From Muribaculaceae bacterium (GTDB taxonomy: Bacteria; Bacteroidota; Bacteroidia; Bacteroidales; Muribaculaceae), in NCBI GenBank assembly GCA_017478265.1, contig JAFVDY010000011.1:1-43422 (forward strand): a stretch of DNA of 43,422 bases. Direction: 5' to 3'. Both the position numbers and the translations under genes were made by a program. The notes below the pieces were generated by a model that was not told where the DNA came from, did not search any database, and worked only from the letters and a program-made list of their open reading frames with translations. Below are positions 894 to 14,684 of the stretch, piece after piece. Numbering within the stretch: the first letter of the stretch is position 1; every line of letters begins with the position of its first letter.

Positions 894-2390
894 TTAGTTT
901 TCGTCTGTTTCTACAAAATTTACCTCAAACACAAAGGAATCATACTTAGAGCCATAAGCAGCACCCCAATTTATCCAAAAGAAATCACTGTTGTCGTCCC
1001 CGTGATAACTTTTACCATATCTTTCTCTTATCTGTTTGCGAGTAATCGTTTTATCACAATTAGAGTCAAAAATGTATGCCCAAAAACCATTATCTTCCGA
1101 ATATGGTAACATTTGACATCTATAGCTCTTTAATGTCCACACTTTTCCTTGAGGTACATGTATAATTTTTGTAGAATAATCAGCTGTTCGACCATCAGAT
1201 TTCGCTCCGTAATTGCCCGTGACGTTTTGATATGGTTCTTTTTTAAAATAAACGGTTACTATTCTCTCATTAGTAGCCCCTAATGGAGAATGATGATAAT
1301 CTTCTATTTCTTCGTATTCCTTCCTTTGTTCCAACGAATCTAAATAAGTTCTATAGTTATCCATAGCTTTTATTTCTGCTTTCAGACATCGTGCTTTGAG
1401 TTCCTCAGAGAAAGTGTCATTTCCTTTCAAGTCTACATATCCGTAATGCCTTATTGAGGGATTATATACTGTTCCGTCTGTTCCGTCTGTATAATGTCCC
1501 TCTTCAGGTTCTTCTAACACAACAAGTATAACTCCATTTGAGGAAAAAGGTCTATCAGTATTATCTTTATCCCTGTCATAAGCCATTTCGTCATATTTAG
1601 CCGAAATCAAAACCTTCCCAACGGAATCTTTTACACCATATTTTTTACGACAAACATAGTCTTCCACTTCACCAACACCGTTAGTTTCTTCGACAAATAC
1701 GGAATTAGAACTTTTGACACTTATCTTTTGTATAGAGTCTTTCTCTTCCCAAGATATTGTTTCCAATTTATTTCCATGCTTATCATAGACATCATGTTTA
1801 TAATCTGATGTGGGGAGATATATCTTCCCTTCAATAAAATAGGGCATTTGGTGACTTTCGGAAAATTCGGGATCCCAATTAAAACCACTTCTTTTGAATA
1901 CAACATTGCCTTCTGTATCTATTACTGAAAATTCGGCATTTTCCATAACACCATGAGCGACAAAGGCTAACCCTTCAGAAAAACGTCCAACGTAATAAGC
2001 ATCGATATTAACGGGTATTACTTCTTCGCCTTTGGCATTGATATACCCCCATTTTTCTCCTTTTCTTACTGCTGCATATCCTTCACTGAATATGCCAAGT
2101 TCGTCATATTTTTCTATGGCTTTAATAAATTCGGGAGTAAGTTCCACAATTGCATCTTTGTCGCTTCCAACATCATCAAACTTTGAATAAGCATAATATC
2201 CTCCACCGCCTATAAGACAAAGCAGAGCAACAATCAAAGCCCATATCCAACCTTTCTTTTTCTTTGGTTCTTCGTATATCACTTCTTCTTGGGCTGCACC
2301 AAGACTTTCTATTGGACATCCGCAATTCGGACAAGCAGAGGCCTTATCCGAAACCTCATGCCCACATTCGTTACATTTGATTAGTGCCAT
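894..2390 (-). CDS. Zinc-ribbon + TM + WG-repeat protein
   Basis: N-terminal CNEC...CPNC, TM WIWALIVALLCLIGGGGYY, WG-repeat motifs (FSEGYAAVRKGEKWGYIN, FSEGLAFV, YGYVDLKGN). Confidence 0.85.
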   Translation of the reverse strand: MALIKCNECGHEVSDKASACPNCGCPIESLGAAQEEVIYEEPKKKKGWIWALIVALLCLIGGGGYYAYSKFDDVGSDKDAIVELTPEFIKAIEKYDELGIFSEGYAAVRKGEKWGYINAKGEEVIPVNIDAYYVGRFSEGLAFVAHGVMENAEFSVIDTEGNVVFKRSGFNWDPEFSESHQMPYFIEGKIYLPTSDYKHDVYDKHGNKLETISWEEKDSIQKISVKSSNSVFVEETNGVGEVEDYVCRKKYGVKDSVGKVLISAKYDEMAYDRDKDNTDRPFSSNGVILVVLEEPEEGHYTDGTDGTVYNPSIRHYGYVDLKGNDTFSEELKARCLKAEIKAMDNYRTYLDSLEQRKEYEEIEDYHHSPLGATNERIVTVYFKKEPYQNVTGNYGAKSDGRTADYSTKIIHVPQGKVWTLKSYRCQMLPYSEDNGFWAYIFDSNCDKTITRKQIRERYGKSYHGDDNSDFFWINWGAAYGSKYDSFVFEVNFVETDEN

Positions 2391-2400
2391 ATCATCCTAT

Positions 2401-3720
2401 TTATTTCCTCTGATACTCGAAAGTTCTTTTTGCTGACGATCTTAATAAATACTTCTCCAAACTCATATCGTAACCGGTTCTGTCAGGTGTCCCTTCACCT
2501 ACAGAAATTGATTCTTTGTCGCCGGTGCTGTTATCTATATGATAAAAGCCTCTATACTTTTCCCATTTAATCGTGTTGCTATTTGTTACTCTTGCATCTC
2601 TTACATCTCCATACGCATCATAGTAATAAATGACATCGTAATTTTTAGAAGTGTGACTATTCATTTCAATAAATCGTCCTCTTTCCAATTTACCGTAACA
2701 TACATCGCCAATCATTTTAAAGCCAAATTTCGTTGGGATCCTTGTAGAGCCGGAACCTGTTTTATACATTACAAAATTGCCATTTGGATATCCATCATCA
2801 TCAAAGTTTATTACAGCATATCTTCCATTGCTACTGTATTCCCATTGTCCTACTTGATAATCGTTCTTAAAGTGTCCTTTCGCATAGAACCCATTACTTC
2901 CCTTAAATTCAAAATTTCCATCAAAAATACGAGCCCCATCAGGCCTTTCAATATACTGATATTTTGCTTTCCCATATTCTTTTGTTAATCCAAATGCGGA
3001 AAACTCACCTTCGTATGTTTTGTGATTAGTAAGCTGTTCCCATTTATACTCCTTTTTTTCTTTTTGCGATTCAGTTGAACTATCAGATAGCCACCTTGCA
3101 CTCACACTGACACCAAAACTATCACCCTCAACATTTAATAAAACAGAAAGGACTATCTCCGATTCACAAGTTTCACCATTTGCTGAGATAGCAGGAGACC
3201 AATTGGGCATCCTTGATATTGCCGATAGAACACGATCGTTTATGAAATTATCTGATGTGCCTTTTACTATATGTGGTTTTTTTACACTTCCGTTCTTCGT
3301 GATCGTTAATGAAATTTCAACAAGTCCCCCCTTGTTTTCTATTACACTCTCCCAAAAACTTAACCCTTCAGTTTTATTGGGATTATAATAATTCATAAAC
3401 CAATGGCCTATTCCTTTCGCATTTCCCACAAAAGATGGTTTAATTTGAGGATTTTGCCCATAGGAACTCATAGAAGAAAGAATAAGGGTAATAAACAAAA
3501 TAATCAAACCTTTTGGCCCATATTTGTTTCTTGACATCTGTTTCTTTCTCTCTGCATCATTTATTTCATCAAACTTATCGCTTGTAGGTTGTTGTGGTTG
3601 AGGCGTTTTGCTCCTTATGTTGGATGTCTTGCAATTCGGGCATTCGCTTTCTGTTGCATAGAAAACTTTTCCGCACGTTGTGCATCTTACTTCTTTACTA
3701 ATAACTTTTGAATCTACCAT
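2401..3720 (-). CDS. Zinc-ribbon + TM/signal + TonB C-terminal-like domain + MORN-like repeat protein
   Basis: CTTC...CPNC, hydrophobic LIILFITLILSS, TonB_C-like segment (VEISLTITKNGSVKKPHIVKG...RMPNWSPA), MORN-like KGHFKNDYQVGQWEY. ATG at 3720 preferred over TTG at 3729. Confidence 0.75.
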   Translation of the reverse strand: MVDSKVISKEVRCTTCGKVFYATESECPNCKTSNIRSKTPQPQQPTSDKFDEINDAERKKQMSRNKYGPKGLIILFITLILSSMSSYGQNPQIKPSFVGNAKGIGHWFMNYYNPNKTEGLSFWESVIENKGGLVEISLTITKNGSVKKPHIVKGTSDNFINDRVLSAISRMPNWSPAISANGETCESEIVLSVLLNVEGDSFGVSVSARWLSDSSTESQKEKKEYKWEQLTNHKTYEGEFSAFGLTKEYGKAKYQYIERPDGARIFDGNFEFKGSNGFYAKGHFKNDYQVGQWEYSSNGRYAVINFDDDGYPNGNFVMYKTGSGSTRIPTKFGFKMIGDVCYGKLERGRFIEMNSHTSKNYDVIYYYDAYGDVRDARVTNSNTIKWEKYRGFYHIDNSTGDKESISVGEGTPDRTGYDMSLEKYLLRSSAKRTFEYQRK

Positions 3721-3776
3721 GAGTACCAATAGTTTTATGCACCCATGACCCGAAAGTGCGGTTGTTATTACGTTTA

Positions 3777-4709: not shown

Positions 4710-4747
4710 AACCGGGGAGCGACGCGTAGCGTGTCGCTCCCCGGTTT
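4710..4747 (-). terminator. Intrinsic terminator of the TonB-receptor/PepSY-like operon
   Basis: Inverted repeat AACCGGGGAGCGAC/GTCGCTCCCCGGTT followed on the minus strand by a T-rich tract. Confidence 0.8.
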
Positions 4748-4773: not shown

Positions 4774-5292
4774 TCAATCGTCGACAACCATCAGTTGGCC
4801 TTGCGGAGTAAATTTGAGGTCGAGGTCGTTGGCGAGTTCGATTTCGTAGCCGTAGGGCGACTTGTCGATTTTGGTGATGGGAGCGCCTCCGTAGTTAGCT
4901 TTGACGTAGGAGGCGATGTTTTGCGGCACGAGAGCCGCGGGCACTGGTGCCATTTTGTGGCAGTCGACTTTTTTCCATTGTCCGTCGGCCGCGAATTCGA
5001 GTTCGGTGCCGTCGCTCAGGTGCACATCGAAGTGCATGACACCGTCGTCGTAGTCGGGAATCGCGCTTACCACGTTCTTACCCTTGAAAGTCTGTTGGAT
5101 AAAATCGGTGGCTACAGTAGGCAGTTGTGCCGGCTGTGCCGCCGGAGCTGCTTGAGAGGGTGCTACGGGCGCTACCGCTTGACTTGGCACCGGTTGCTGC
5201 GCTGTAGCAGCCGGCTGTTGGTTGGCATTGTTGCCGCCACATGAGGCCAATGCTATGGCCGCCAGGCTAATAAGGAAAATGTTTTGTTTCAT
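4774..5292 (-). CDS. PepSY-like (DUF2874-type) periplasmic lipoprotein
   Basis: Lipobox ALASC, Ala/Pro/Gln linker, two repeats of the type ELEFAADGQWKKVD / YEIELANDLDLKF. Confidence 0.85.
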   Translation of the reverse strand: MKQNIFLISLAAIALASCGGNNANQQPAATAQQPVPSQAVAPVAPSQAAPAAQPAQLPTVATDFIQQTFKGKNVVSAIPDYDDGVMHFDVHLSDGTELEFAADGQWKKVDCHKMAPVPAALVPQNIASYVKANYGGAPITKIDKSPYGYEIELANDLDLKFTPQGQLMVVDD

Positions 5293-5328: not shown

Positions 5329-7470
5329 TCAGGAGTTGAACAGCGGGAATGAGAGTTTGATTACCACATTGGTGCCCATATTGTAGACCCCTTGTCGGCC
5401 CGTAACCGGGTTAATTGGAGCGTACTTAAGCCGGCTGAGATGGTTTTGGTACACCTTGTTGGTAAGGTTGTTGACCAGCAGGGCGATTGTGGCGATGCGG
5501 CGTCCGCGGTAACTTAAATCCGTTCCGGCCGAGAAGTTGAGCAAGGCATAGGCCGGCGTGGCCGTTTCGGTGTTACCCGCCTCGCGATAGTGGCTTTGGC
5601 GGAAGTTGTAGTCGAGCGATAGGGCCACGTAGGCATTGTTGAACACTTTATTCTCGTGACCATGAGTGATTTCCCATTTGAGGTCGGTTAGCCATCGTGG
5701 TGCGGGCGTGAACGGCAGGTAACGGCTCTCTTGCGGCTGATGCAGTTGAATGGCGTCGACGAGCGACAGCGAAGTGGAGAGGTGCACGGCGTGGATAGGG
5801 TGGAAGTCGACGAAAAATTCTCCGCCCATTAGTCGTGCTGTGCCTTGCCGATAGGAGTATAGCGGGAGGTCGTCGATAATCACATCCGGCACTCGCTCAA
5901 GGAAGATGAAGTTGCTCACGCGGTTGAAGAAGAGCGCCAGTTGCAGCGACATCCACGAGTTGGCGTAGTCGAGGCCGAGGTCGGCCTGAAAGCTGTACTC
6001 CGGCTTGAGGTTGCTGTCGCCCCGCTCGTAACGCAGAGTGCCCTCATGCACGCCGTTGGAGGCGAGTTCGCTGATGTTTGGCGTACGGAATCCGCGAGAG
6101 ATGTTCGCCTTGATGCTGAGGTCGGAGTTGATGTTGAAAACAGCACCGGCGCTGGCTGTAAACCCTCCGAAATTGCGCTTGAATCCCGCGAAACGCAGTT
6201 CGCCGTCGTCGAGCGGATTGCTGACGAGGTGTCGCGTGTCGTAGCGTATGCCCGCGTTGACGCTCCATCGCTCCCATCGCTTGCCCGCTGTGGCGAAGAC
6301 GCCGAAGTCGAAGATGTGATAATCTGGAATCAGAAACTCATCGCCGGCGTTGCGCGAGAGTTGCCACATACCCGCCACACCGGCTGTGTAAGAGAAGCCG
6401 TTACGCTCGGCGGCGGCAAAGTGTACGTTATAGTTGACGGTGTGGAGCTTAAAGAATAGCCCGTAGAGGTTAGGCATATCCGGCTCCTCAAACTCCTTGC
6501 GGCGGTTGTGCTGGTAGCCAATCAAGGCGTTGATCGCACCGGCGTCGCCGATACGGAATCGGTTGTCGGTCACCACCTTGTAGTGGTAAATTTGCTGGTA
6601 TGGCATACCGTGGCTGTAGGTGCAGACCTTGCCCTCTGGCCGCAGCAACTCGCCGGTGACCTCATCTCGTTCGCCCTCGACTATTGAAGGCGTCTGGTGG
6701 AAGAAAGAGAGTGTGAGCCATGAGTGGCCCCAACCGCGGTTGATGCCGCCGAAGAGCCGCGCCGCGCGCTCGGCGAATTGCGAGTTGGGCACGATGCCGT
6801 CGCGACGATTGCGATAGGCGTGGGCGTACTTGTCGCTAAATCGAATGTCCCACACGTTGCCACGCCGGTTACCGCCCCAGTTAAGGGTGTAGCACAGCAA
6901 CCCGTTGTTGGACTGATACTGCGCGGCCACCTCGCCGTGCATTTTGCCCGGCGCCGACACCGGCATGGCGTTGAACTTGATAACACCGGCGAGGGCGTCG
7001 CTGCCATAGACCAGACTTGCCGGCCCCTTGAGCACCTCGACGCTTGAGATGCCGTTGCCGTCGATTTCGATGCCGTGTTCGTCGCCCCACTGCTGTCCTT
7101 CCTGGCGAATACCGTCGTTCACGACCACTATGCGGTTATATCCCAAGCCGCGGATTACGGGCTTGGAGATGGCGCCGCCTGTGGTAACCTGAGCGACACC
7201 CGGAAGCGTGGCGATGGCATCGATGGCGTTGGTGGCGCCGATGCCGTACATCTCGCGGGCTGTGATTACGCTCACGGCTCCTGAGGCGTCGCGCAGGCGT
7301 GTGGCGCCTGTCGAGCCGGTTACAATCACCTCTTTAAGGTCGAGGTGGTGGCGAAAGATGTCGTCGCCGGAGAGGCTATCGAGCTCGTTGTCGGCCGGTT
7401 GCGCCTGTGCGCCGGCGGCGAGCGCGGCCACCGCGAGGGCGGCCGATATGATTGAACGTAAAGGTTTCAT
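5329..7470 (-). CDS. TonB-dependent outer-membrane receptor (possibly metal uptake)
   Basis: Signal peptide, EVIVTG TonB-box-like segment, plug motifs (KPVIRGLG, WGDEHG, VEVLKGPASLVYGSDA), barrel motifs (GFRTPNISEL, LKPE, NNLTNKVY). Confidence 0.92.
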   Translation of the reverse strand: MKPLRSIISAALAVAALAAGAQAQPADNELDSLSGDDIFRHHLDLKEVIVTGSTGATRLRDASGAVSVITAREMYGIGATNAIDAIATLPGVAQVTTGGAISKPVIRGLGYNRIVVVNDGIRQEGQQWGDEHGIEIDGNGISSVEVLKGPASLVYGSDALAGVIKFNAMPVSAPGKMHGEVAAQYQSNNGLLCYTLNWGGNRRGNVWDIRFSDKYAHAYRNRRDGIVPNSQFAERAARLFGGINRGWGHSWLTLSFFHQTPSIVEGERDEVTGELLRPEGKVCTYSHGMPYQQIYHYKVVTDNRFRIGDAGAINALIGYQHNRRKEFEEPDMPNLYGLFFKLHTVNYNVHFAAAERNGFSYTAGVAGMWQLSRNAGDEFLIPDYHIFDFGVFATAGKRWERWSVNAGIRYDTRHLVSNPLDDGELRFAGFKRNFGGFTASAGAVFNINSDLSIKANISRGFRTPNISELASNGVHEGTLRYERGDSNLKPEYSFQADLGLDYANSWMSLQLALFFNRVSNFIFLERVPDVIIDDLPLYSYRQGTARLMGGEFFVDFHPIHAVHLSTSLSLVDAIQLHQPQESRYLPFTPAPRWLTDLKWEITHGHENKVFNNAYVALSLDYNFRQSHYREAGNTETATPAYALLNFSAGTDLSYRGRRIATIALLVNNLTNKVYQNHLSRLKYAPINPVTGRQGVYNMGTNVVIKLSFPLFNS

Positions 7471-7474
7471 ATTA

Positions 7475-9493
7475 TTAATTATCGGCGGGAGCGATTGGGG
7501 CGCGGTGCTGAATGATGCGTCCTTCGCTCGTTATGCCATTGATTATAAGTTCATAATTACCTGCCGGCTGGAAGTCGACGTCAAACACTACAGCGCTATC
7601 GGCGCTCTTGAGAGTGACGTCGGATAGCCAGTACAGCACCTGAGCCGATGGCTTAGGTGCTTTAAGGGGCTGTATGCCGGGCAGTTTGATTGTGGTTATA
7701 TTGCAGTCGTTGGAGGCCGGAGCTCGCCGACTGCCTTCTTTGAGTTTGATTGAGATCACTCCGCTACCGCCGCGGTGTCCCCAGATGGCTGTGCTGCCCG
7801 TTTTGAACACGTCGACGCGCTCTACGTCCTGCATTTGGATTGAATGTAGGTCGTAGTCGAGGTCAATAAGTCCGTCGATGGCGATAGCAGCGGGGTTGTC
7901 GCCATAGATGGAGGTATGGGCACGTATGTAGCAACGGTCGTCGCGCACGAATACGCCCGGCACGCGTCGCAGCAGCTCGTGCAGACACGTGGCGTCGTAT
8001 TCATCTATTTGTTCGCGCGAGAGCGAGAAGTCGGCAAACTGCGAGAAACCGCCTCCCGCGCCTATGTTGTTGTAGCGGAAGCCACGCACGGTGACGTTGT
8101 CGAGCACGATGGTGCCGGCGGTGTCGACCGGCGCGCCGTCGGTGACCGCCACAAGTCGCGGCTCGAACGGTTCGCGTTCGATGCGCGAAGCACCCGCGGC
8201 GGGATATGTCGGTTCGTCGACGCGCAGGAATACGCGGTCGCTACCATCGCTTCTGTTGGCTTGCACGATAAACTGGTTCTCCCCCACCCCGTCGAGACCG
8301 CCGAGCGTGAAGCGTCCGTCGTCGCCGGTGGTGGTGAACGAGCAGACGTCGGCTTGCGGCGAGATGGCGCTCACCTTCGCATCTTTTAGCGGTCTGGCCG
8401 GCAGCAGTTTCTCGACACGTCCGGTAATGGTGGTCGTCACCTCTACCGGAGAATTTGGACGGCGGTAGGAGGCGTGTAGCGCGGCTTGCAGCAGCGAGTC
8501 GGCGGCAGGCGATTGCAACAAGGCTTGCAGGCGTTGCGGCTCGCTGCCGATAGTCCAGCCCGTTCCGCCGTCAATCTCGGATGCCACCGTGAGGTCGAAA
8601 GCCATGTCACGGTCAGCGTCGAAGGCTGTTGCGCGCGCTATCGCCAACGACAGCTGCGCCGTTTCGCCCTCGGCGAGTTGCGGCAGGGCGCATGAGACGC
8701 CGGTGCTGACGCCGTTTTGCCATGTGTCGACACTCGCGGGACAGTGGTAGTCGGGATTGACATTGATGGTGACGGCGAATGTGGCCTCGCCCACTATATC
8801 GTAGTTATCGTTTAGCACTACAGCGCGACTAATGCCCGGCGGCAGGTTGTCGTAGTTGACGGCAACCACATCGCCACGCTTGATAGGGACGAAATAGAAC
8901 GGCATCAGCCGGTTGACCAACAGCAACGAGAGACTCGAGGCCGGCTGCGACGCGGGCAGGGCAAAACGCAAGTCGCGCGCGGTGGCGGTGACGTTGAGGT
9001 CGCACATTGCACCGAGGACGATGGGTGGCTGCGCTGACGTCGCGGGCTCGCCGCCGAGGTCGCTATCGACAAGGAGAGGCAGCACCGTGGCGTAGCCCAC
9101 TCCGGCGTCGATGCTACGGCGCGTATAGGCACGCAGGAAGCAGACGCCCGGTTTTAGCGATGGCGGCAGCTCGACGTAGCCGACGGCACAACCGTAGTCG
9201 TTGACGTTCTTGACGCGCTGCAACACCGTGCCACGGCTGTCGATGAGCTCGACATATACAAAGCGGCTTGTGTCGGACGGCGCGAGAGTCACACCGTTGA
9301 GGCAATAGGCACGATAGCGCACCGCCTCGCCACGGTAACAACGGTTGTGGTCGACGTGTAGCGCGACCTTCTCGGGTATGTAGAGTTGCGACTGAGTAGC
9401 GAGCCGCGACACAATAGTGTCGAGCGACACCGCGGCACGACACGGCACAGCCAGCGGCAGCAGTGTTATAATGAGGAAGAATACTCGTCTCAT
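7475..9493 (-). CDS. Exported protein with MG2-like N-terminus, carboxypeptidase-regulatory-like domain and TonB plug domain (no barrel)
   Basis: PEKVALHVDHNRCYRGEAVRYRAY, TTTGDDGRFTL, LLRRVPGV...DVERVDVFK...WGHRGGSGVISIKLK. Confidence 0.75.
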   Translation of the reverse strand: MRRVFFLIITLLPLAVPCRAAVSLDTIVSRLATQSQLYIPEKVALHVDHNRCYRGEAVRYRAYCLNGVTLAPSDTSRFVYVELIDSRGTVLQRVKNVNDYGCAVGYVELPPSLKPGVCFLRAYTRRSIDAGVGYATVLPLLVDSDLGGEPATSAQPPIVLGAMCDLNVTATARDLRFALPASQPASSLSLLLVNRLMPFYFVPIKRGDVVAVNYDNLPPGISRAVVLNDNYDIVGEATFAVTINVNPDYHCPASVDTWQNGVSTGVSCALPQLAEGETAQLSLAIARATAFDADRDMAFDLTVASEIDGGTGWTIGSEPQRLQALLQSPAADSLLQAALHASYRRPNSPVEVTTTITGRVEKLLPARPLKDAKVSAISPQADVCSFTTTGDDGRFTLGGLDGVGENQFIVQANRSDGSDRVFLRVDEPTYPAAGASRIEREPFEPRLVAVTDGAPVDTAGTIVLDNVTVRGFRYNNIGAGGGFSQFADFSLSREQIDEYDATCLHELLRRVPGVFVRDDRCYIRAHTSIYGDNPAAIAIDGLIDLDYDLHSIQMQDVERVDVFKTGSTAIWGHRGGSGVISIKLKEGSRRAPASNDCNITTIKLPGIQPLKAPKPSAQVLYWLSDVTLKSADSAVVFDVDFQPAGNYELIINGITSEGRIIQHRAPIAPADN

Positions 9494-9563
9494 TGTGATT
9501 TGATTTAATCGTTGGTAGCGAAATGAAGTCGATTATCAGCGACGAGCATTGGAGGCCACGCCG

Positions 9564-9914
9564 CTACGCCACAGCGGGCGGAGCGCGGGCGGGACGGCGA
9601 CTGATGTCGACCGCGAGCGCACTTGTGGCGCTCTCAACCACAATCGCCTCGAGGCTAAACACGACGGAACTGACACCGCTGTCGCCCTTGATAAACTGAA
9701 AGGCACTGAAGTGGCACAGCCAGCAGTAACTGTCGACCGTGGGCTGTGATGGCGAGAAGTGGGTGGCATGGGGCAGGTGGGCTACACAAGCGCCACAATC
9801 GTCGCCGATGGTGGTCACAGCCGTGTGGCAGTGCAACATCGACACGAGCACCACCGGCAGGAACACCGCCAGCAGCAGCCACGAGTAAATTCTATGCCGT
9901 CGTTCAATTGCCAA
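9564..9914 (-). CDS. DUF2946/CruR-like leader protein with CxxC motifs and C-terminal RAPP arrest motif
   Basis: N-terminal TM, HCH, CGAC, His cluster, CWLC and C-terminal PARAPPAVA*. First gene of a TonB-receptor operon; TTG start is uncertain. Confidence 0.7.
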   Translation of the reverse strand: MAIERRHRIYSWLLLAVFLPVVLVSMLHCHTAVTTIGDDCGACVAHLPHATHFSPSQPTVDSYCWLCHFSAFQFIKGDSGVSSVVFSLEAIVVESATSALAVDISRRPARAPPAVA

Positions 9915-9940
9915 GCGTATAAATTAAGAGTTTATATTTA

Positions 9941-9948
9941 CAAAGGTA
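9941..9948 (-). promoter_or_regulatory. Promoter -7 element for the RAPP-ORF/TonB operon
   Basis: Minus strand TACCTTTG, about 26 nt upstream of the leader ORF. Confidence 0.55.
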
Positions 9949-10194: not shown

Positions 10195-12030
10195 TTATGC
10201 TTCGGCGTTGGGGGAGTCGGGGTGTAGGGCCGAGTGGATGGCGCGTGCTCGGGCGGTGCCGACTACGGCTTGTAGTTGCTCGAGCGAAGCCTCGCGGACG
10301 CGTTTTACGCTCTTGAAATGCTTGAGGAGAGTGGTGCGAGTGGCCTCCCCCACCCCGGCGATGTCGTCGAGCGCGGAGTGTATTTGTCCCTTGCTTCGCT
10401 TTGTGCGGTGGTGCTTGATGCCGAAGCGGTGCGCCTCGTCGCGCAGGTGTTGGATCACGCGCAGGCTCTCGCTATTCTTGTCGATGTAGAGTGGGACACT
10501 ATCTCCGGGGAAAAATATCTCGTTTAATTGCTTGGCGATGCCGATGGCGGCGATGGTGCCGCGCAGGCCTATGCTGTCGAGCGCCTCAACGGCGGCGCTC
10601 AGTTGTCCCTTTCCGCCGTCCACCACTATGAGCTGCGGCAGGTCGAGACCTTCCGTCACCAGCCGCGAATAGCGCCGCGTGATTACCTCACGCATCGAGG
10701 CATAGTCGTCGGGGCCTTCAACGGTTTTGATATTGAAATGTCGATATTCTTTCTTGGCCGGCTTGGCGTTGCGGAACACCACGCACGAGGCGACGGCGCT
10801 TGTGCCCTGGATGTTGGAGTTGTCGAAGCACTCCACGTGGCGCGGCAATTCGTTTAGGTGGAAGTCGCGTTGCATGGCGGTAAGGGTGCGTGTGGCTCGC
10901 TGCTCGGGGTTGAGTTTCTCCATGCGCTTTAGTTTGTCGTCGCGATATTGCCGTGCGTTTTTAAGCGAGATGGCGAGGAGTTTGCGCTTGTCGCCTCGCT
11001 GCGGGATGGTGAACGTGACGCCCTCGAGCGAGAAGTCGGGCTCGACGTTTACCACCACCTCGCGCACGCGGTCGTCACGGTAGGCTTCACCAAAGCGCTC
11101 GCGCACGTCGCGAATGGCGCTCGACATCAATTCGGCATCGCTCTCGCCGGTATCAATATCCTGGAATTTATATTCCACTGTCACGCTCTGGACTATTGAG
11201 CCGCATCGAATGTGCATGAAGTTGACAAACGCCGAGCCCTCGTCGCGCAGGATTGCGAACACGTCGATATTATGGATTGCCGGGCTGACAATCACCGAGC
11301 GTGCGCGATAATTTTCAATCAGCTGATACTTGCGTTTCAGTTCTTGCGCCTGCTCAAATTTGAGTTCATCGGCCAGCCGCATCATCTCGGTCATCAGGTA
11401 ATCGCTCACCTGCTTTGTGTCGCCATTAAGTATTTTTTTTATATCCTCAACATACTCGCCATACTCTTTGGCGGAGATAAATCCTTGACAACAGCCACGG
11501 CAGTTTTTTATATGATACTGGAGGCATAACGGATATTTTCGTTGCTCGACGGTTTCGGGCGTGAGCGGGTGCCGACAGGTGCGAACGGGATACATCTTCC
11601 TTATCACTTCCAGTAGGGCGTGAGCAACCTCGGTCTTGGGGTATGGGCCGTAGAACTTTGCTCCACGGCTAACTTGCTCACGGCTAATGACGACGCGTGG
11701 AAATGTTTCACGTGAAACACATATCCACGGATAACTTTTATCGTCCTTCAGAAGCACGTTGTAGTGCGGCTGATATTCTTTTATAAGGCTATTCTCAAGG
11801 TCGAGCGCTTCCTCTTCGGTATTTACCACAATATAGCGCATATCGGCGATATGCCGCACGAGCATATTGGTGCGCAACACGGGGTGGACTCGATTGAAAT
11901 AGGAGCTTACGCGACGCTTGAGTTTCTTAGCCTTGCCTACGTAGATAACTGTCCCGCCGGCGTCCATATACATATAGACGCCGGGCGATTCGGGCAGCAA
12001 GGATATTTTCAGTCGCAGTTCGTCGGTCAT
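10195..12030 (-). CDS. uvrC: Excinuclease ABC subunit C
   Basis: GIY-YIG motif (PGVY...YVGKAK), ECFDNS, VVDGGKGQL, RDEAHRFGI, C-terminal HhH. Confidence 0.97.
   Translation of the reverse strand: MTDELRLKISLLPESPGVYMYMDAGGTVIYVGKAKKLKRRVSSYFNRVHPVLRTNMLVRHIADMRYIVVNTEEEALDLENSLIKEYQPHYNVLLKDDKSYPWICVSRETFPRVVISREQVSRGAKFYGPYPKTEVAHALLEVIRKMYPVRTCRHPLTPETVEQRKYPLCLQYHIKNCRGCCQGFISAKEYGEYVEDIKKILNGDTKQVSDYLMTEMMRLADELKFEQAQELKRKYQLIENYRARSVIVSPAIHNIDVFAILRDEGSAFVNFMHIRCGSIVQSVTVEYKFQDIDTGESDAELMSSAIRDVRERFGEAYRDDRVREVVVNVEPDFSLEGVTFTIPQRGDKRKLLAISLKNARQYRDDKLKRMEKLNPEQRATRTLTAMQRDFHLNELPRHVECFDNSNIQGTSAVASCVVFRNAKPAKKEYRHFNIKTVEGPDDYASMREVITRRYSRLVTEGLDLPQLIVVDGGKGQLSAAVEALDSIGLRGTIAAIGIAKQLNEIFFPGDSVPLYIDKNSESLRVIQHLRDEAHRFGIKHHRTKRSKGQIHSALDDIAGVGEATRTTLLKHFKSVKRVREASLEQLQAVVGTARARAIHSALHPDSPNAEA
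11704..11719. promoter_or_regulatory. parS: parS centromere site (perfect), inside uvrC
   Basis: TGTTTCACGTGAAACA, an exact 16-bp parS consensus palindrome. Confidence 0.85.
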
Positions 12031-12191
12031 TACTCGTCTTCCTTATTTAAACTACAAATTTAACGAATTATACAAATCACATTATGGTAGACTCTAAAAT
12101 AAATATGGCTGATACGAGTGTCCCACTATGCATTTTTTTGCAAAATTTGATTAATTTGTAGCATAAACAAATGATCCTTTTAATAGTGTGA

Positions 12192-12746
12192 TCACTTGCC
12201 TTCGGTGCCGGCGAAAGAGAAGAGGCTCGTCACTTCAACGTCGGCGGGAAATTTCTCGCGTCCTTTGAGGTCGGTGAGTTCGCAGAGGAAGTTTACGTAG
12301 ACTTTCTTCGGCTTAAGGCTGCGTACGAGCTGCAGTGCCGCAGCCATGGTGCCGCCGGTGGCGAGGAGATCGTCATGAAGGACAATCACATCGTTGCTGT
12401 CAATGGCGTCCTTGTGAACTTCGATTGTGTCGGTGCCGTATTCTTTCTCATAATCGAGTTGAACAGTTTCGGCGGGCAGCTTGCCGGGTTTGCGAATAGG
12501 CACGAAACCGGCTCCGAGACGTTCGGCGAGCATAGCACCGCCTATGAAACCGCGAGATTCGATACCGGCCACCTTAGTGATGCCTTTCCCCTCGTAAAGC
12601 TCCTCGAGCGCGTCACCCATGATGGCGAGTGCTTCAGCGTCTTTAAAGAGGGTGGTGAGATCCTTAAACTGGATGCCCGGAATGGGGAAATCGGGCACGT
12701 TTCTTACAACAGCTTTTACTTTGTCGATTTGTTCTTTTGTAATCAT
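12192..12746 (-). CDS. apt: Adenine phosphoribosyltransferase
   Basis: PDFPIPGIQFKD, GIESRGF, RKPGKLP, DDLLATGGT. Confidence 0.96.
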   Translation of the reverse strand: MITKEQIDKVKAVVRNVPDFPIPGIQFKDLTTLFKDAEALAIMGDALEELYEGKGITKVAGIESRGFIGGAMLAERLGAGFVPIRKPGKLPAETVQLDYEKEYGTDTIEVHKDAIDSNDVIVLHDDLLATGGTMAAALQLVRSLKPKKVYVNFLCELTDLKGREKFPADVEVTSLFSFAGTEGK

Positions 12747-12769
12747 AATGCTATTATAAATTTAGAATT

Positions 12770-12785
12770 TGTTTCACGTGAAACT
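12770..12785. promoter_or_regulatory. parS: parS site (15/16 match), between mnmG and apt
   Basis: TGTTTCACGTGAAACT. Confidence 0.8.
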
Positions 12786-12803
12786 GTCGATTTGCGCCAT
12801 TAA

Positions 12804-14684
12804 TCATCTTCCGCAAAGCAACAGCAGTATATTAATATCGCTCGGTGAGATGCCGGGTATACGCGCAGCCTGCCCCACCGTGGCCGGGTCGATACGTTCG
12901 AGTTTCTGTCGCGCCTCGGTCGACAGTTGATGTATATCGGCGTAGTTAAATCGTCCACGCAGTTTTACATTTTCGAGACGGGTCAATTTGTCGGCTATTA
13001 GTGTTTCGCGCTCAATATAGCCGTGATATTTTATTTCAATTTCGGCAGCCTCGATAATCTCGTCGCGACGCGCCGGCTCTAATTTATCCAATTCAGCTCC
13101 CAATGGCGCAATCATAGTTGCGAGAGTGACGATTGTCAATGTGGGGCGCAAAATCAAATCATAAAGTTTGCAGCCTTGACGCAAAGCCGGCAATCCGTTT
13201 GCCTCGAAAATCGGATTGATAACTGAGGTTTTCACAGTGAACTCGCGGCAGAAATCAATTAAATTTTCCACCTGCCGCCACTTCGAGAGCATGAGATTAT
13301 GGCGCTCGGCGGTAGCGAGACCTAAGTGATAGCCGATTGGAGTGAGGCGGCGGTCAGCATCGTCCTGGCGAAGCAGGATGCGGTGTTCGGCGCGTGAGGT
13401 GAACATTCTATACGGTTCGTCCACCCCCTTCGTTACCAGATCGTCAATCAGCACGCCGATGTAGGCTTGGTCGCGACGTAACACGAACTCCTCCCCTACC
13501 CCGTTAGCTTTAAGATGCGCGTTCACGCCGGCCACAAGCCCCTGCCCGGCAGCCTCCTCATAGCCGGTGGTGCCATTCACCTGTCCGGCAAAAAAGAGGT
13601 TGGCGACGCGCTTCGTCTCGAGAGTGTGCCGTAGCTGTGTCGGGTCGAAAAAGTCATATTCGATGGCATATCCCGGGCGGAAGAAATGAGTGTCCCGCAA
13701 CGCCGGTATCTGTTCGAGCGCGGAAATCTGCACCTGCCACGGCATCGACGACGAGAAACCGTTGAGATACATCTCGGTGGTGGTTTCGCCTTCGGGTTCG
13801 ATAAAGAGCTGATGACTGTCCCGATCGGGGAATGTGACAAGTTTAGTTTCGATACTCGGGCAATATCGCGGACCTATACTTTGGATTTGGCCATTGTAAA
13901 GCGGCGAGTCGGGCAGTCCGTCGCGCAGAATTTGGTGCACCTTATCGTTGGTATACACAATCCAGCACGGACGCTGCTTAAGGCTCGATTTAACCTCAGG
14001 CAGGAACGAGAAATGATGGAAATCCGTGTCGCCATCCTGACGTTCGGCCGCATTATAGTCGACGGTTCGCGCGTCGAGGCGAACAGGCGTTCCGGTTTTC
14101 ATGCGGTCAGTCGCGAAACCGAGGTCGCGCAACTGCTCGGTAATCCCGTGGGCCGCAGGTTCCGCGACACGTCCGCCAGCCATCTGCACGTGTCCCACAT
14201 GCATCAGTCCGTTGAGAAAAGTTCCGGCAGTGAGCACAACACTTGTGGCGCCGAAGGTGACGCCGAGTTGAGTTTTCACCCCGGTAACTTTTCCGTCCTC
14301 TATCACCAGTTCGATGGCATTGTCTTGCCATAGGTAGAGATTAGGTGTTTGCTCAAGTGTTTCACGCCAGTTTTTAATAAATAACGCACGGTCGCACTGC
14401 GAACGGGGGCTCCACATGGCGGGCCCTTTGCTGCGGTTCAACATTCGGAATTGGATTGAGCTGCGGTCGGTGACGATACCCATTTGTCCGCCTAAAGCGT
14501 CGATTTCACGCACTATTTGGCCCTTGGCTATACCGCCAACGGCGGGATTACAGCTCATCTGCGCGATTTTGTTCATGTCCATAGTGATGAGCAAGGTTGT
14601 GCTTCCCATTCGCGCGGCGGCACTCGCCGCCTCGCAGCCCGCATGGCCCGCCCCTATCACTATGACGTCGTACTGAAGTCTCAT
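12804..14684 (-). CDS. mnmG: tRNA uridine-5-carboxymethylaminomethyl(34) synthesis enzyme MnmG (GidA)
   Basis: GAGHAGCEAA, MSCNPAVGG, GPRYCPSIE, AGQVNGTTGYEEAA, EPYRMFTSRAE. Confidence 0.98.
   Translation of the reverse strand: MRLQYDVIVIGAGHAGCEAASAAARMGSTTLLITMDMNKIAQMSCNPAVGGIAKGQIVREIDALGGQMGIVTDRSSIQFRMLNRSKGPAMWSPRSQCDRALFIKNWRETLEQTPNLYLWQDNAIELVIEDGKVTGVKTQLGVTFGATSVVLTAGTFLNGLMHVGHVQMAGGRVAEPAAHGITEQLRDLGFATDRMKTGTPVRLDARTVDYNAAERQDGDTDFHHFSFLPEVKSSLKQRPCWIVYTNDKVHQILRDGLPDSPLYNGQIQSIGPRYCPSIETKLVTFPDRDSHQLFIEPEGETTTEMYLNGFSSSMPWQVQISALEQIPALRDTHFFRPGYAIEYDFFDPTQLRHTLETKRVANLFFAGQVNGTTGYEEAAGQGLVAGVNAHLKANGVGEEFVLRRDQAYIGVLIDDLVTKGVDEPYRMFTSRAEHRILLRQDDADRRLTPIGYHLGLATAERHNLMLSKWRQVENLIDFCREFTVKTSVINPIFEANGLPALRQGCKLYDLILRPTLTIVTLATMIAPLGAELDKLEPARRDEIIEAAEIEIKYHGYIERETLIADKLTRLENVKLRGRFNYADIHQLSTEARQKLERIDPATVGQAARIPGISPSDINILLLLCGR

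What the first reader, a model, noticed from the sequence alone, without database searches (positions are those of the whole stretch)
9494..9948. CxxC/His-rich leader ORF ending in RAPP: candidate metal-sensing ribosome-arrest regulator in Bacteroidales
Seen: the first ORF of the TonB operon has a TM segment, HCH, CGAC, several His and CWLC. It then has a 42-residue spacer and RAPP (9576-9587), three codons before the stop. GTAGCG overlapping the stop can pair with CGCTAC about 20 nt before the next start (9562-9567/9515-9520). Established: RAPP is the stalling motif of ApdA/ApdP, and the DUF2946 uORF CruR (CxxC plus RAPP) gives copper-responsive control of a TonB-dependent transporter in Bordetella pertussis. 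Inference: an analogous nascent-peptide metal sensor here, with an extra CxxC/His site that may indicate a different metal (Zn, Ni or Co).
Basis: partly seen in the sequence, partly recalled or inferred. Interest (0 to 1): 0.72.

Follow-up and report, generated by a model that had tools for sequence, protein, structure and literature searches.

The report
Ribosome-stalling zinc switch before importer
A small membrane-peptide gene ending in the ribosome-stalling motif Arg-Ala-Pro-Pro sits in front of a zinc-type outer-membrane importer across gut Bacteroidales and likely lets a stalled ribosome uncover the importer's start codon when metal (probably zinc) is scarce; this is a variant of the known copper switches CruR/CutF, and in this species an extra gene lies between switch and importer.

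Summary
Observation confirmed. ORF 9564-9914 (-, 116 aa) has a TM segment, HxH, two CxxC, three more His, a 42-residue spacer and RAPP. It heads a conserved module: 67 of 80 loci picked only by the receptor carry the leader directly upstream, 66 with RAPP/RGPP 42-44 residues after CxxC. It is a remote DUF2946/CruR relative (no Pfam hit itself; 61 of 115 relatives hit weakly). Added here: the receptor is ZnuD-like and keeps at least three of ZnuD's four zinc-ligand positions, favouring Zn. In 34-36 of 64 loci the bases under a RAPP-stalled ribosome pair with the downstream start region (matched controls 1-4; a window next to the stall site gave 11), suggesting translational attenuation in a phylum without Shine-Dalgarno sites. 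In this window a 672-aa plug-domain gene lies between leader and receptor, and the proposed GTAGCG/CGCTAC pair is not supported (p 0.42). Stalling and metal response are untested. Papers already predict such leaders in Bacteroidota, and this scan found the same kind on other DNA. New variant of a known kind.

The parts
9941..9948 (-). Bacteroidota -7 promoter element TACCTTTG (TAnnTTTG), 26 nt before the leader start
   Evidence: Sequence; the same element lies just upstream of 46 of 64 leaders examined; consensus from PMC7366714 passage
9564..9914 (-). Leader ORF, 116 aa, remote CruR/DUF2946-like candidate arrest peptide
   Evidence: 19 strain variants in 4 runs (9 synonymous, 10 not), none in the conserved Cys/His or RAPP, no frameshift
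9834..9890 (-). N-terminal hydrophobic TM/signal segment (residues 9-27) after a basic N-terminus
   Evidence: Hydropathy; predicted helix 2-26 at pLDDT about 95
9714..9833 (-). Candidate metal site: H28-x-H30, C40xxC43, H46, H49, H52, C64xxC67
   Evidence: Each position 94-100% conserved in the alignment of relatives; metal binding is inferred
9576..9587 (-). RAPP arrest motif, 42 residues after CWLC, 3 codons before the stop
   Evidence: R.PP in 143 of 149 relatives, spacer 42-44 in all 143
9494..9563 (-).
   Evidence: Pairing not favoured: probability about 0; duplex -11.4 kcal/mol at -28..-17, p 0.42 against shuffles
9480..9550 (-). Predicted long hairpin enclosing the start of the 672-aa gene (9541-9550 pairs with 9480-9489); its 5' arm lies outside the modelled stalled-ribosome footprint
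   Evidence: prediction only, z -1.8 for the region
7475..9493 (-). 672-aa exported protein with a CarboxypepD_reg-like stretch and a TonB plug domain, no barrel; likely inserted between leader and receptor in this species
   Evidence: Pfam; 17 of 18 same-genus receptor loci have the leader directly before the receptor; 3 of 3 full-length homologues lack a leader; arrangement seen in one contig of another study
5329..7470 (-). ZnuD-like TonB-dependent receptor, 713 aa, starting 4 nt after the previous stop
4774..5292 (-). PepSY-like (PF11396) lipoprotein, possibly co-transcribed; not a conserved neighbour
4710..4746 (.). 17-pair inverted repeat after the lipoprotein gene, probable terminator
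   Evidence: listed on the + strand

Best explanation
The ORF is a conserved leader gene that likely encodes a metal-sensing ribosome-arrest peptide, predicted to switch on a zinc-type TonB importer when the metal, most likely zinc, is scarce. Model: the leader is transcribed from a plain -7 promoter, with no conserved operator found. The ribosome would stall at RAPP with the last CxxC about 43 residues back, near the tunnel exit and translocon. In most relatives the stalled ribosome would cover the roughly 21 nt that otherwise pair with the receptor's start region, so the receptor would be translated. Metal binding to the Cys4/His5 cluster would fold or pull the chain and release the stall; the helix would then re-form and shut the start. 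Shown: motifs, spacing, gene order, ZnuD likeness, position-specific RNA complementarity. Inferred: stalling, metal binding, Zn as the ligand, direction of control. In this species the switch faces an inserted 672-aa gene and would reach the receptor only by coupling or polarity; the window's own RNA switch is unresolved. Rough odds: arrest-type regulator 0.9, metal-sensing 0.8, Zn 0.6, start-masking mechanism in the family 0.75, still working in this species 0.5.
For: Motif and spacing conservation: 143 of 149 relatives have R.PP and all 143 a 42-44 spacer, while the spacer sequence is free. 67 of 80 receptor-selected loci carry the leader, 66 with RAPP/RGPP; no other neighbour is shared by more than 5 loci. 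CruR has the same layout, a 45-residue spacer and RAPP three residues from the end (PMC9426467), and stalls with the two Pro codons in the P and A sites (PMC12992588). Receptor: ZnuD is the top PDB match by profile (161 vs 122.6 bits) and by fold (ranks 1-3). ZnuD ligands D99, H100 and H499 (PMC4557270) align with E131 (61 of 66), H132 (66 of 66) and H475 (66 of 66), and an acid lies at or two residues from E340. RNA: complementarity to the start region peaks at 0 to +24 nt from the P-site Pro codon (-7.8 and -8.1 kcal/mol vs -2.9 to -5.1 elsewhere). 36 of 64 loci beat shuffles vs 3 and 1 for upstream control windows. It survives one-per-cluster sampling and holds in 19 of 38 loci lacking the common CAGA-ATG type. 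The motif recurs in two reading frames (10 and 7 loci). Prevotella translation fell about 8-fold with a -5 kcal/mol structure in the start region (PMC3155529).
Against: No experiment, and no data on expression. The window itself fails the RNA test (p 0.3 to 0.42; opening energy 10.5 free vs 9.5 stalled). 28-30 of 64 loci show no significant helix, and 13 of the 36 significant ones end 6-25 nt before the ATG, where masking may be weak (PMC3155529 section 12). The control window directly upstream of the stall site scored 11 of 64. Heme receptors also use two His at these places (PMC4557270), NCBIfam ranks the hemin model above ZnuD and all are below cut-off, and PhuR and OprC are close behind ZnuD in the fold search. 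13 of 80 receptor loci have no leader (one is cut by a contig end). RAPP alone is not enough for arrest (PMC12992588 passage). The gene right behind the leader here has no metal link.
Confidence: 0.62

Rival explanations
1. Same arrest-peptide switch, but the signal is another metal or metal complex (Cu as in CruR, Ni, Co, Fe or heme).
For: All tested DUF2946-type leaders sense Cu. OprC and PhuR lie close behind ZnuD in the fold search; the hemin receptor model scores highest in NCBIfam; His-rich CutF-like clusters precede Ni/Co genes.
Against: ZnuD leads by sequence profile and its ligand positions are kept. Only 3 Met columns and no Cys column are conserved in the receptor. No Cu-related neighbours recur, and Cu-class RAPP leaders were reported lacking in Bacteroidota (PMC12992588).
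Confidence: 0.2
2. The leader monitors secretion or redox state rather than metal: SecM-like pulling by the translocon, or disulfide formation in the CxxC motifs, releases the stall.
For: Every member has a TM/signal segment; RAPP peptides such as ApdA/ApdP are known secretion monitors (PMC10987492, search listing only; PMC12992588 passages); CxxC can form disulfides (general knowledge).
Against: Five near-invariant His in addition to four Cys, His-rich loops in distant members that keep only one CxxC, and a metal-type receptor rather than sec or dsb genes downstream.
Confidence: 0.08
3. The family switch is real, but control is mainly by Rho-dependent termination as in CruR, with the RNA helix secondary; or, in this species, the inserted gene has uncoupled the leader from the receptor.
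For: CruR works through Rho. Intergenic regions lean C over G in 43 vs 18 of 63 loci, and 21 vs 12 in the window. The window lacks the family helix.
Against: The helix is position-specific and re-evolved in unlike sequences; intergenic regions are short (median 70 nt). The leader is intact with all key residues kept in 4 other runs, so it looks maintained.
Confidence: 0.1

Closest known systems
CruR (Bp2923, DUF2946/PF11162) before the TonB transporter BfrG, Bordetella pertussis (PMC9426467; arrest shown in PMC12992588)
   Same: First gene of the operon, export/TM segment, CxxC a fixed distance before a C-terminal RAPP that lies three residues from the end, TonB importer downstream; likely the same logic (stall = ON when metal is scarce).
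   Different: Spacer 42-44 rather than 45; second CxxC and five conserved His; ZnuD-like rather than Cu receptor; short intergenic region with a helix against the start codon instead of a long one with Rho termination; window protein has no PF11162 hit.
CutF before cutO, Rhodobacter capsulatus, and the 'CutF-like' set (10.1101/2022.11.11.516240; 10.1101/2025.02.05.636593)
   Same: Exported nascent sensor whose stall melts an RNA helix over the next start; the survey already lists Bacteroidota as 19% (40% normalised) of 5,334 CutF-like proteins, with TonB-like neighbours frequent overall.
   Different: CutF has CxxxC and a proline-rich end, is induced by Cu and controls detoxification; its helix hides a Shine-Dalgarno site, which Bacteroidota do not use. 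Whether this subfamily is in their list could not be checked (list not among the held files).
TonB-class RAPP/RGPP upstream ORFs of Fujiwara et al. (PMC12992588)
   Same: Small, signal-bearing, C-terminal RAPP/RGPP ORFs before TonB receptors, described as found universally in Gram-negative bacteria.
   Different: In the passages and section read there is no account of this Cys4/His5 subfamily, its metal, its ZnuD-like target or the start-masking helix.
ZnuD, Neisseria meningitidis zinc importer (PMC4557270)
   Same: Best structural and profile match of the receptor; plug acid-His pair and loop His kept.
   Different: About 18-19% identity; ZnuD is controlled by Zur at transcription, while no conserved operator was found upstream of these leaders.

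Membership tests
DUF2946 (PF11162) / CruR | Match to the PF11162 profile above cut-off | tested here: not met
   Window protein: no Pfam hit at E up to 1. 61 of 115 relatives hit at E up to 1, best 2e-5; atlas neighbours carry DUF2946 in 12-16% of members. Remote homology, not formal membership.
DUF2946 (PF11162) / CruR | CxxC and C-terminal RAPP at conserved spacing (45, within 1-2) | tested here: met
   Both motifs present and spacing tightly fixed, but at 42-44 (128 of 143 at 43), slightly shorter than CruR.
DUF2946 (PF11162) / CruR | N-terminal signal or TM segment | tested here: met
   Residues 9-27.
DUF2946 (PF11162) / CruR | First gene of an operon with a metal-uptake gene | tested here: met
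   67 of 80 receptor loci; own -7 element in 46 of 64; in the window one gene intervenes.
DUF2946 (PF11162) / CruR | Copper-related neighbours and copper response | tested here: inconclusive
   No recurring Cu genes among neighbours and the receptor is ZnuD-like; the response itself cannot be tested here.
DUF2946 (PF11162) / CruR | Rho-dependent termination after release of the stall | not testable with these tools
   Only a mild C-over-G bias in intergenic regions.
RAPP arrest peptides (ApdA/ApdP/CruR type) | Ribosome arrest at the Pro-Pro codons | not testable with these tools
   Motif present and 98-99% conserved; RNA complementarity centred on the expected footprint is indirect support.
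CutF-type translational switch | RNA helix over the downstream start that a stalled ribosome would melt | tested here: inconclusive
   Met in 34-36 of 64 family loci and 26 of 53 in a second, partly overlapping set; not met in the window itself (p 0.42).
ZnuD-type zinc receptor (for 5329-7470) | High-affinity ligands D99, H100, E340, H499 | tested here: inconclusive
   Three align cleanly (E131, H132, H475); E340 maps to E328 or E326 depending on register; NF038289 score 87.5 is far below its cut-off of 950.

The most novel reading that the evidence does not exclude
This Cys4/His5-RAPP leader is the main zinc regulator of outer-membrane zinc import in gut Bacteroidales: a translation-level zinc sensor that replaces a Zur operator and works by letting a stalled ribosome unmask the start codon itself in a phylum without Shine-Dalgarno sites. 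It would be the first zinc-sensing arrest peptide shown, and in this species it has captured an unrelated plug-domain gene.
Probability: 0.35. Interest if true: 0.72.

Novelty: new variant of a known kind. Interest (0 to 1): 0.47.

Why it matters
Metal-sensing arrest peptides have been tested for copper in the papers read here; a search for 'RAPP motif' with 'zinc' found no paper. How gut Bacteroidales control zinc uptake under host metal restriction is poorly covered in the library searched. This family gives a precise, testable switch (stall site, ligands, RNA helix, target receptor) in culturable commensals such as Segatella copri (locus L116). The genes are mostly missed by Pfam. The class itself is already predicted for Bacteroidota, which limits surprise.

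Tried and rejected
GTAGCG/CGCTAC as the switch: rejected as unsupported. Word-indexed homologue search found only one near-identical protein; full HMMER was needed. P0002 (3265 aa, repetitive) was dropped as a spurious hit before counting. Leader fold: pLDDT 73, pTM 0.36, no match above Z 3.3, and no PDB sequence hit; uninformative. First independence test by single linkage put 56 of 64 loci in one cluster and left 2 of 9 clusters significant, which says little; it was redone with average linkage. The start-opening energy drop (11.1 to 6.9 kcal/mol) has no matched control and is not relied on. Operator search upstream of 46 leaders: only promoter words were enriched, although the genome has two Fur-family genes. 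DUF4625 lid: not found in this 75%-complete genome; whether BT1420/BT1419 is an orthologous system was not tested. Sequencing runs: no RNA holder listed. An empty-site strain lacking the 672-aa gene was sought and not seen in 4 runs. Sigma-70 scan does not cover Bacteroidota promoters. Supplement searches for Bacteroidales names found nothing, but four large files of PMC12992588 and the CutF-like list were not readable, so prior listing of these genes is not excluded.

Full report
Observation. The minus strand holds a 116-aa ORF at 9564-9914 with a basic N-terminus, a hydrophobic segment at residues 9-27, HCH, CGAC, His 46/49/52, CWLC, 42 residues, RAPP (9576-9587) and three codons to the stop. 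A Bacteroidota -7 element (TACCTTTG, 9948-9941) lies 26 nt upstream; the consensus is from a passage of PMC7366714. Of 7 frames in the genome ending in R[AG]PP, only this one has a CxxC at that distance.

Family. A full HMMER search gave 261 relatives, of which the best 150 were examined. After dropping one repetitive 3265-aa hit, 143 of 149 end in R.PP (114 RAPP, 26 RGPP, 3 other). All 143 have a CxxC 42-44 residues earlier and a second CxxC 21-24 residues before that. H28, H30, H46, H49, H52 and the four Cys are 94-100% conserved; the Cys of HCH and the spacer sequence are not. To avoid selecting on the leader, I fetched 80 loci by the receptor alone: 67 carry the leader directly upstream, 66 with RAPP/RGPP at 42-44 and 60 of those with both CxxC; 13 have none, one of them cut by a contig end. 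A few of these loci are duplicates or near-duplicates. No other neighbour recurs in more than 5 loci. Profiles found relatives in 62 of 301 order genomes and 25 of 301 phylum genomes. Distant members mostly keep one CxxC plus a His-rich loop; of 12 downstream genes scanned, 11 had a plug domain and 1 was DUF4625. Four other runs hold the leader intact, with 9 synonymous and 10 non-synonymous changes, none at the key residues.

Which metal. The receptor's best solved relative is the zinc importer ZnuD by profile (124 vs 86.5 bits; 161 vs 122.6) and by predicted fold (ranks 1-3, with PhuR and OprC close behind). ZnuD binds Zn through D99, H100, E340 and H499 (PMC4557270, passages). Taking a 14-residue numbering offset, which I inferred from the alignment, these map to E131 (61 of 66), H132 (66 of 66), E328 or E326 (58 and 61 of 66) and H475 (66 of 66). 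Against: heme receptors use the same two His according to that paper, and NCBIfam puts the hemin model first with every model under its cut-off. A Cys4/His5 cluster suits Zn (general knowledge). I put Zn at about 0.6.

How the stall would act. CruR stalls with the two Pro codons in the P and A sites (PMC12992588 passage). Sliding 18-nt windows along 63 leaders against the downstream start region gave a sharp peak at 0 to +24 nt from that P site (-7.8 and -8.1 kcal/mol vs -2.9 to -5.1 elsewhere). 22 of 63 beat control start regions at p up to 0.05, and the commonest motif occurs in two reading frames (10 and 7 loci), which points to RNA-level selection. Allowing partners from -40 to +12, 36 of 64 beat dinucleotide shuffles; control windows gave 3, 1 and 11 at offsets -60, -36 and -21; 23 of the 36 reach within 5 nt of the ATG or cover it. 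A rerun gave 34 vs 4. With one locus per sequence cluster the means were 22.5 of 44, 10.9 of 26 and 7.5 of 17 against 2.8, 1.2 and 0.9, and 19 of 38 loci outside the common CAGA-ATG type were significant against 2. A second, partly overlapping set gave 26 of 53 against 4 (14 of 19 from the receptor search of relatives, 5 of 15 order, 7 of 19 phylum). An earlier single-linkage attempt was uninformative. Prevotella lacks functional Shine-Dalgarno pairing and is very sensitive to structure in the start region (PMC3155529, abstract and section 11), so such a helix would shut translation. No operator-like word was enriched upstream of 46 leaders.

This window is atypical. In 17 of 18 same-genus loci the leader directly precedes the receptor; the 18th is at a contig end. 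Three full-length homologues of the 672-aa gene in the genus have no leader upstream (two are cut by contig ends downstream). The three-gene order is also in one contig from another study, so it is not an assembly artefact and is likely an insertion in this species. Here the stall-site RNA does not pair significantly with the next start (p 0.3). The start instead sits in a predicted hairpin (9480-9550) outside the modelled footprint. Whether and how the switch works in this species is unresolved.

Relation to what is known. The window protein has no Pfam hit, but 61 of 115 relatives hit DUF2946 weakly and atlas neighbours carry it in 12-16% of members: it works like CruR/CutF and is a remote relative, not a formal member. 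CruR (PMC9426467: abstract, passages, Discussion) has a 45-residue spacer, senses Cu and acts through Rho; its main text does not mention Bacteroidota. The CutF survey (10.1101/2022.11.11.516240: passages and sections 10-12) counts Bacteroidota as 19% (40% normalised) of CutF-like proteins and suggests other metals. Fujiwara et al. (PMC12992588: passages, section 13) report TonB-class RAPP leaders throughout Gram-negative bacteria. 10.1101/2025.02.05.636593 was seen as abstract only. Searches for a zinc or Bacteroidales-specific account found none; supplements that could list these genes were partly unreadable. Earlier notes of this scan describe the same kind of leader in other genomes; I saw them after my own ZnuD and helix results, and they are not independent evidence.

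Verdict. Real, conserved and well-formed; a new variant of a known kind. What is added is the Cys4/His5 sensor, the ZnuD-like target, the start-masking helix in a phylum without Shine-Dalgarno sites, and a species-specific inserted gene. Stalling, metal identity and regulation are inferred. Interest 0.47.

Noticed in passing
window 7475-9493: A plug-domain, barrel-less exported protein (patchy in the genus, 30-44% identity to three homologues in other contexts) sits between a conserved leader and its receptor, 4 nt from the receptor start; function unknown.
   Followed up: partly
L157, L165, L167, L175 (phylum loci); L059; L029: Related RAPP leaders precede short lipoproteins with His/acid-rich N-terminal stretches, or a DUF4625 lipoprotein (L059), rather than a receptor; in L029 the leader lies after a receptor and before such a lipoprotein.
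   Followed up: no
P0034: A leader homologue whose C-terminal half is replaced by an unrelated stretch that resembles the end of a DUF4625 protein (resemblance recalled, not tested); possibly a deletion or mis-assembly.
   Followed up: no
L010, L109, P0133: Natural motif variants RDPP, RASP and RAPA in otherwise intact leaders; useful for mapping what the arrest tolerates.
   Followed up: no
L096, L099, L101, L106, L107, L115, L119, L120, L123, L144, L146, L147: Twelve receptor orthologues with enough upstream DNA have no leader; how they are controlled was not examined.
   Followed up: partly
window 894-3729: Two minus-strand genes with weak N-terminal zinc-ribbon hits, one with a TonB C-terminal domain, one with WG repeats.
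   Followed up: no
window 10195-14684: uvrC, adenine phosphoribosyltransferase and mnmG/gidA lie upstream on the same strand; ordinary housekeeping genes.
   Followed up: no
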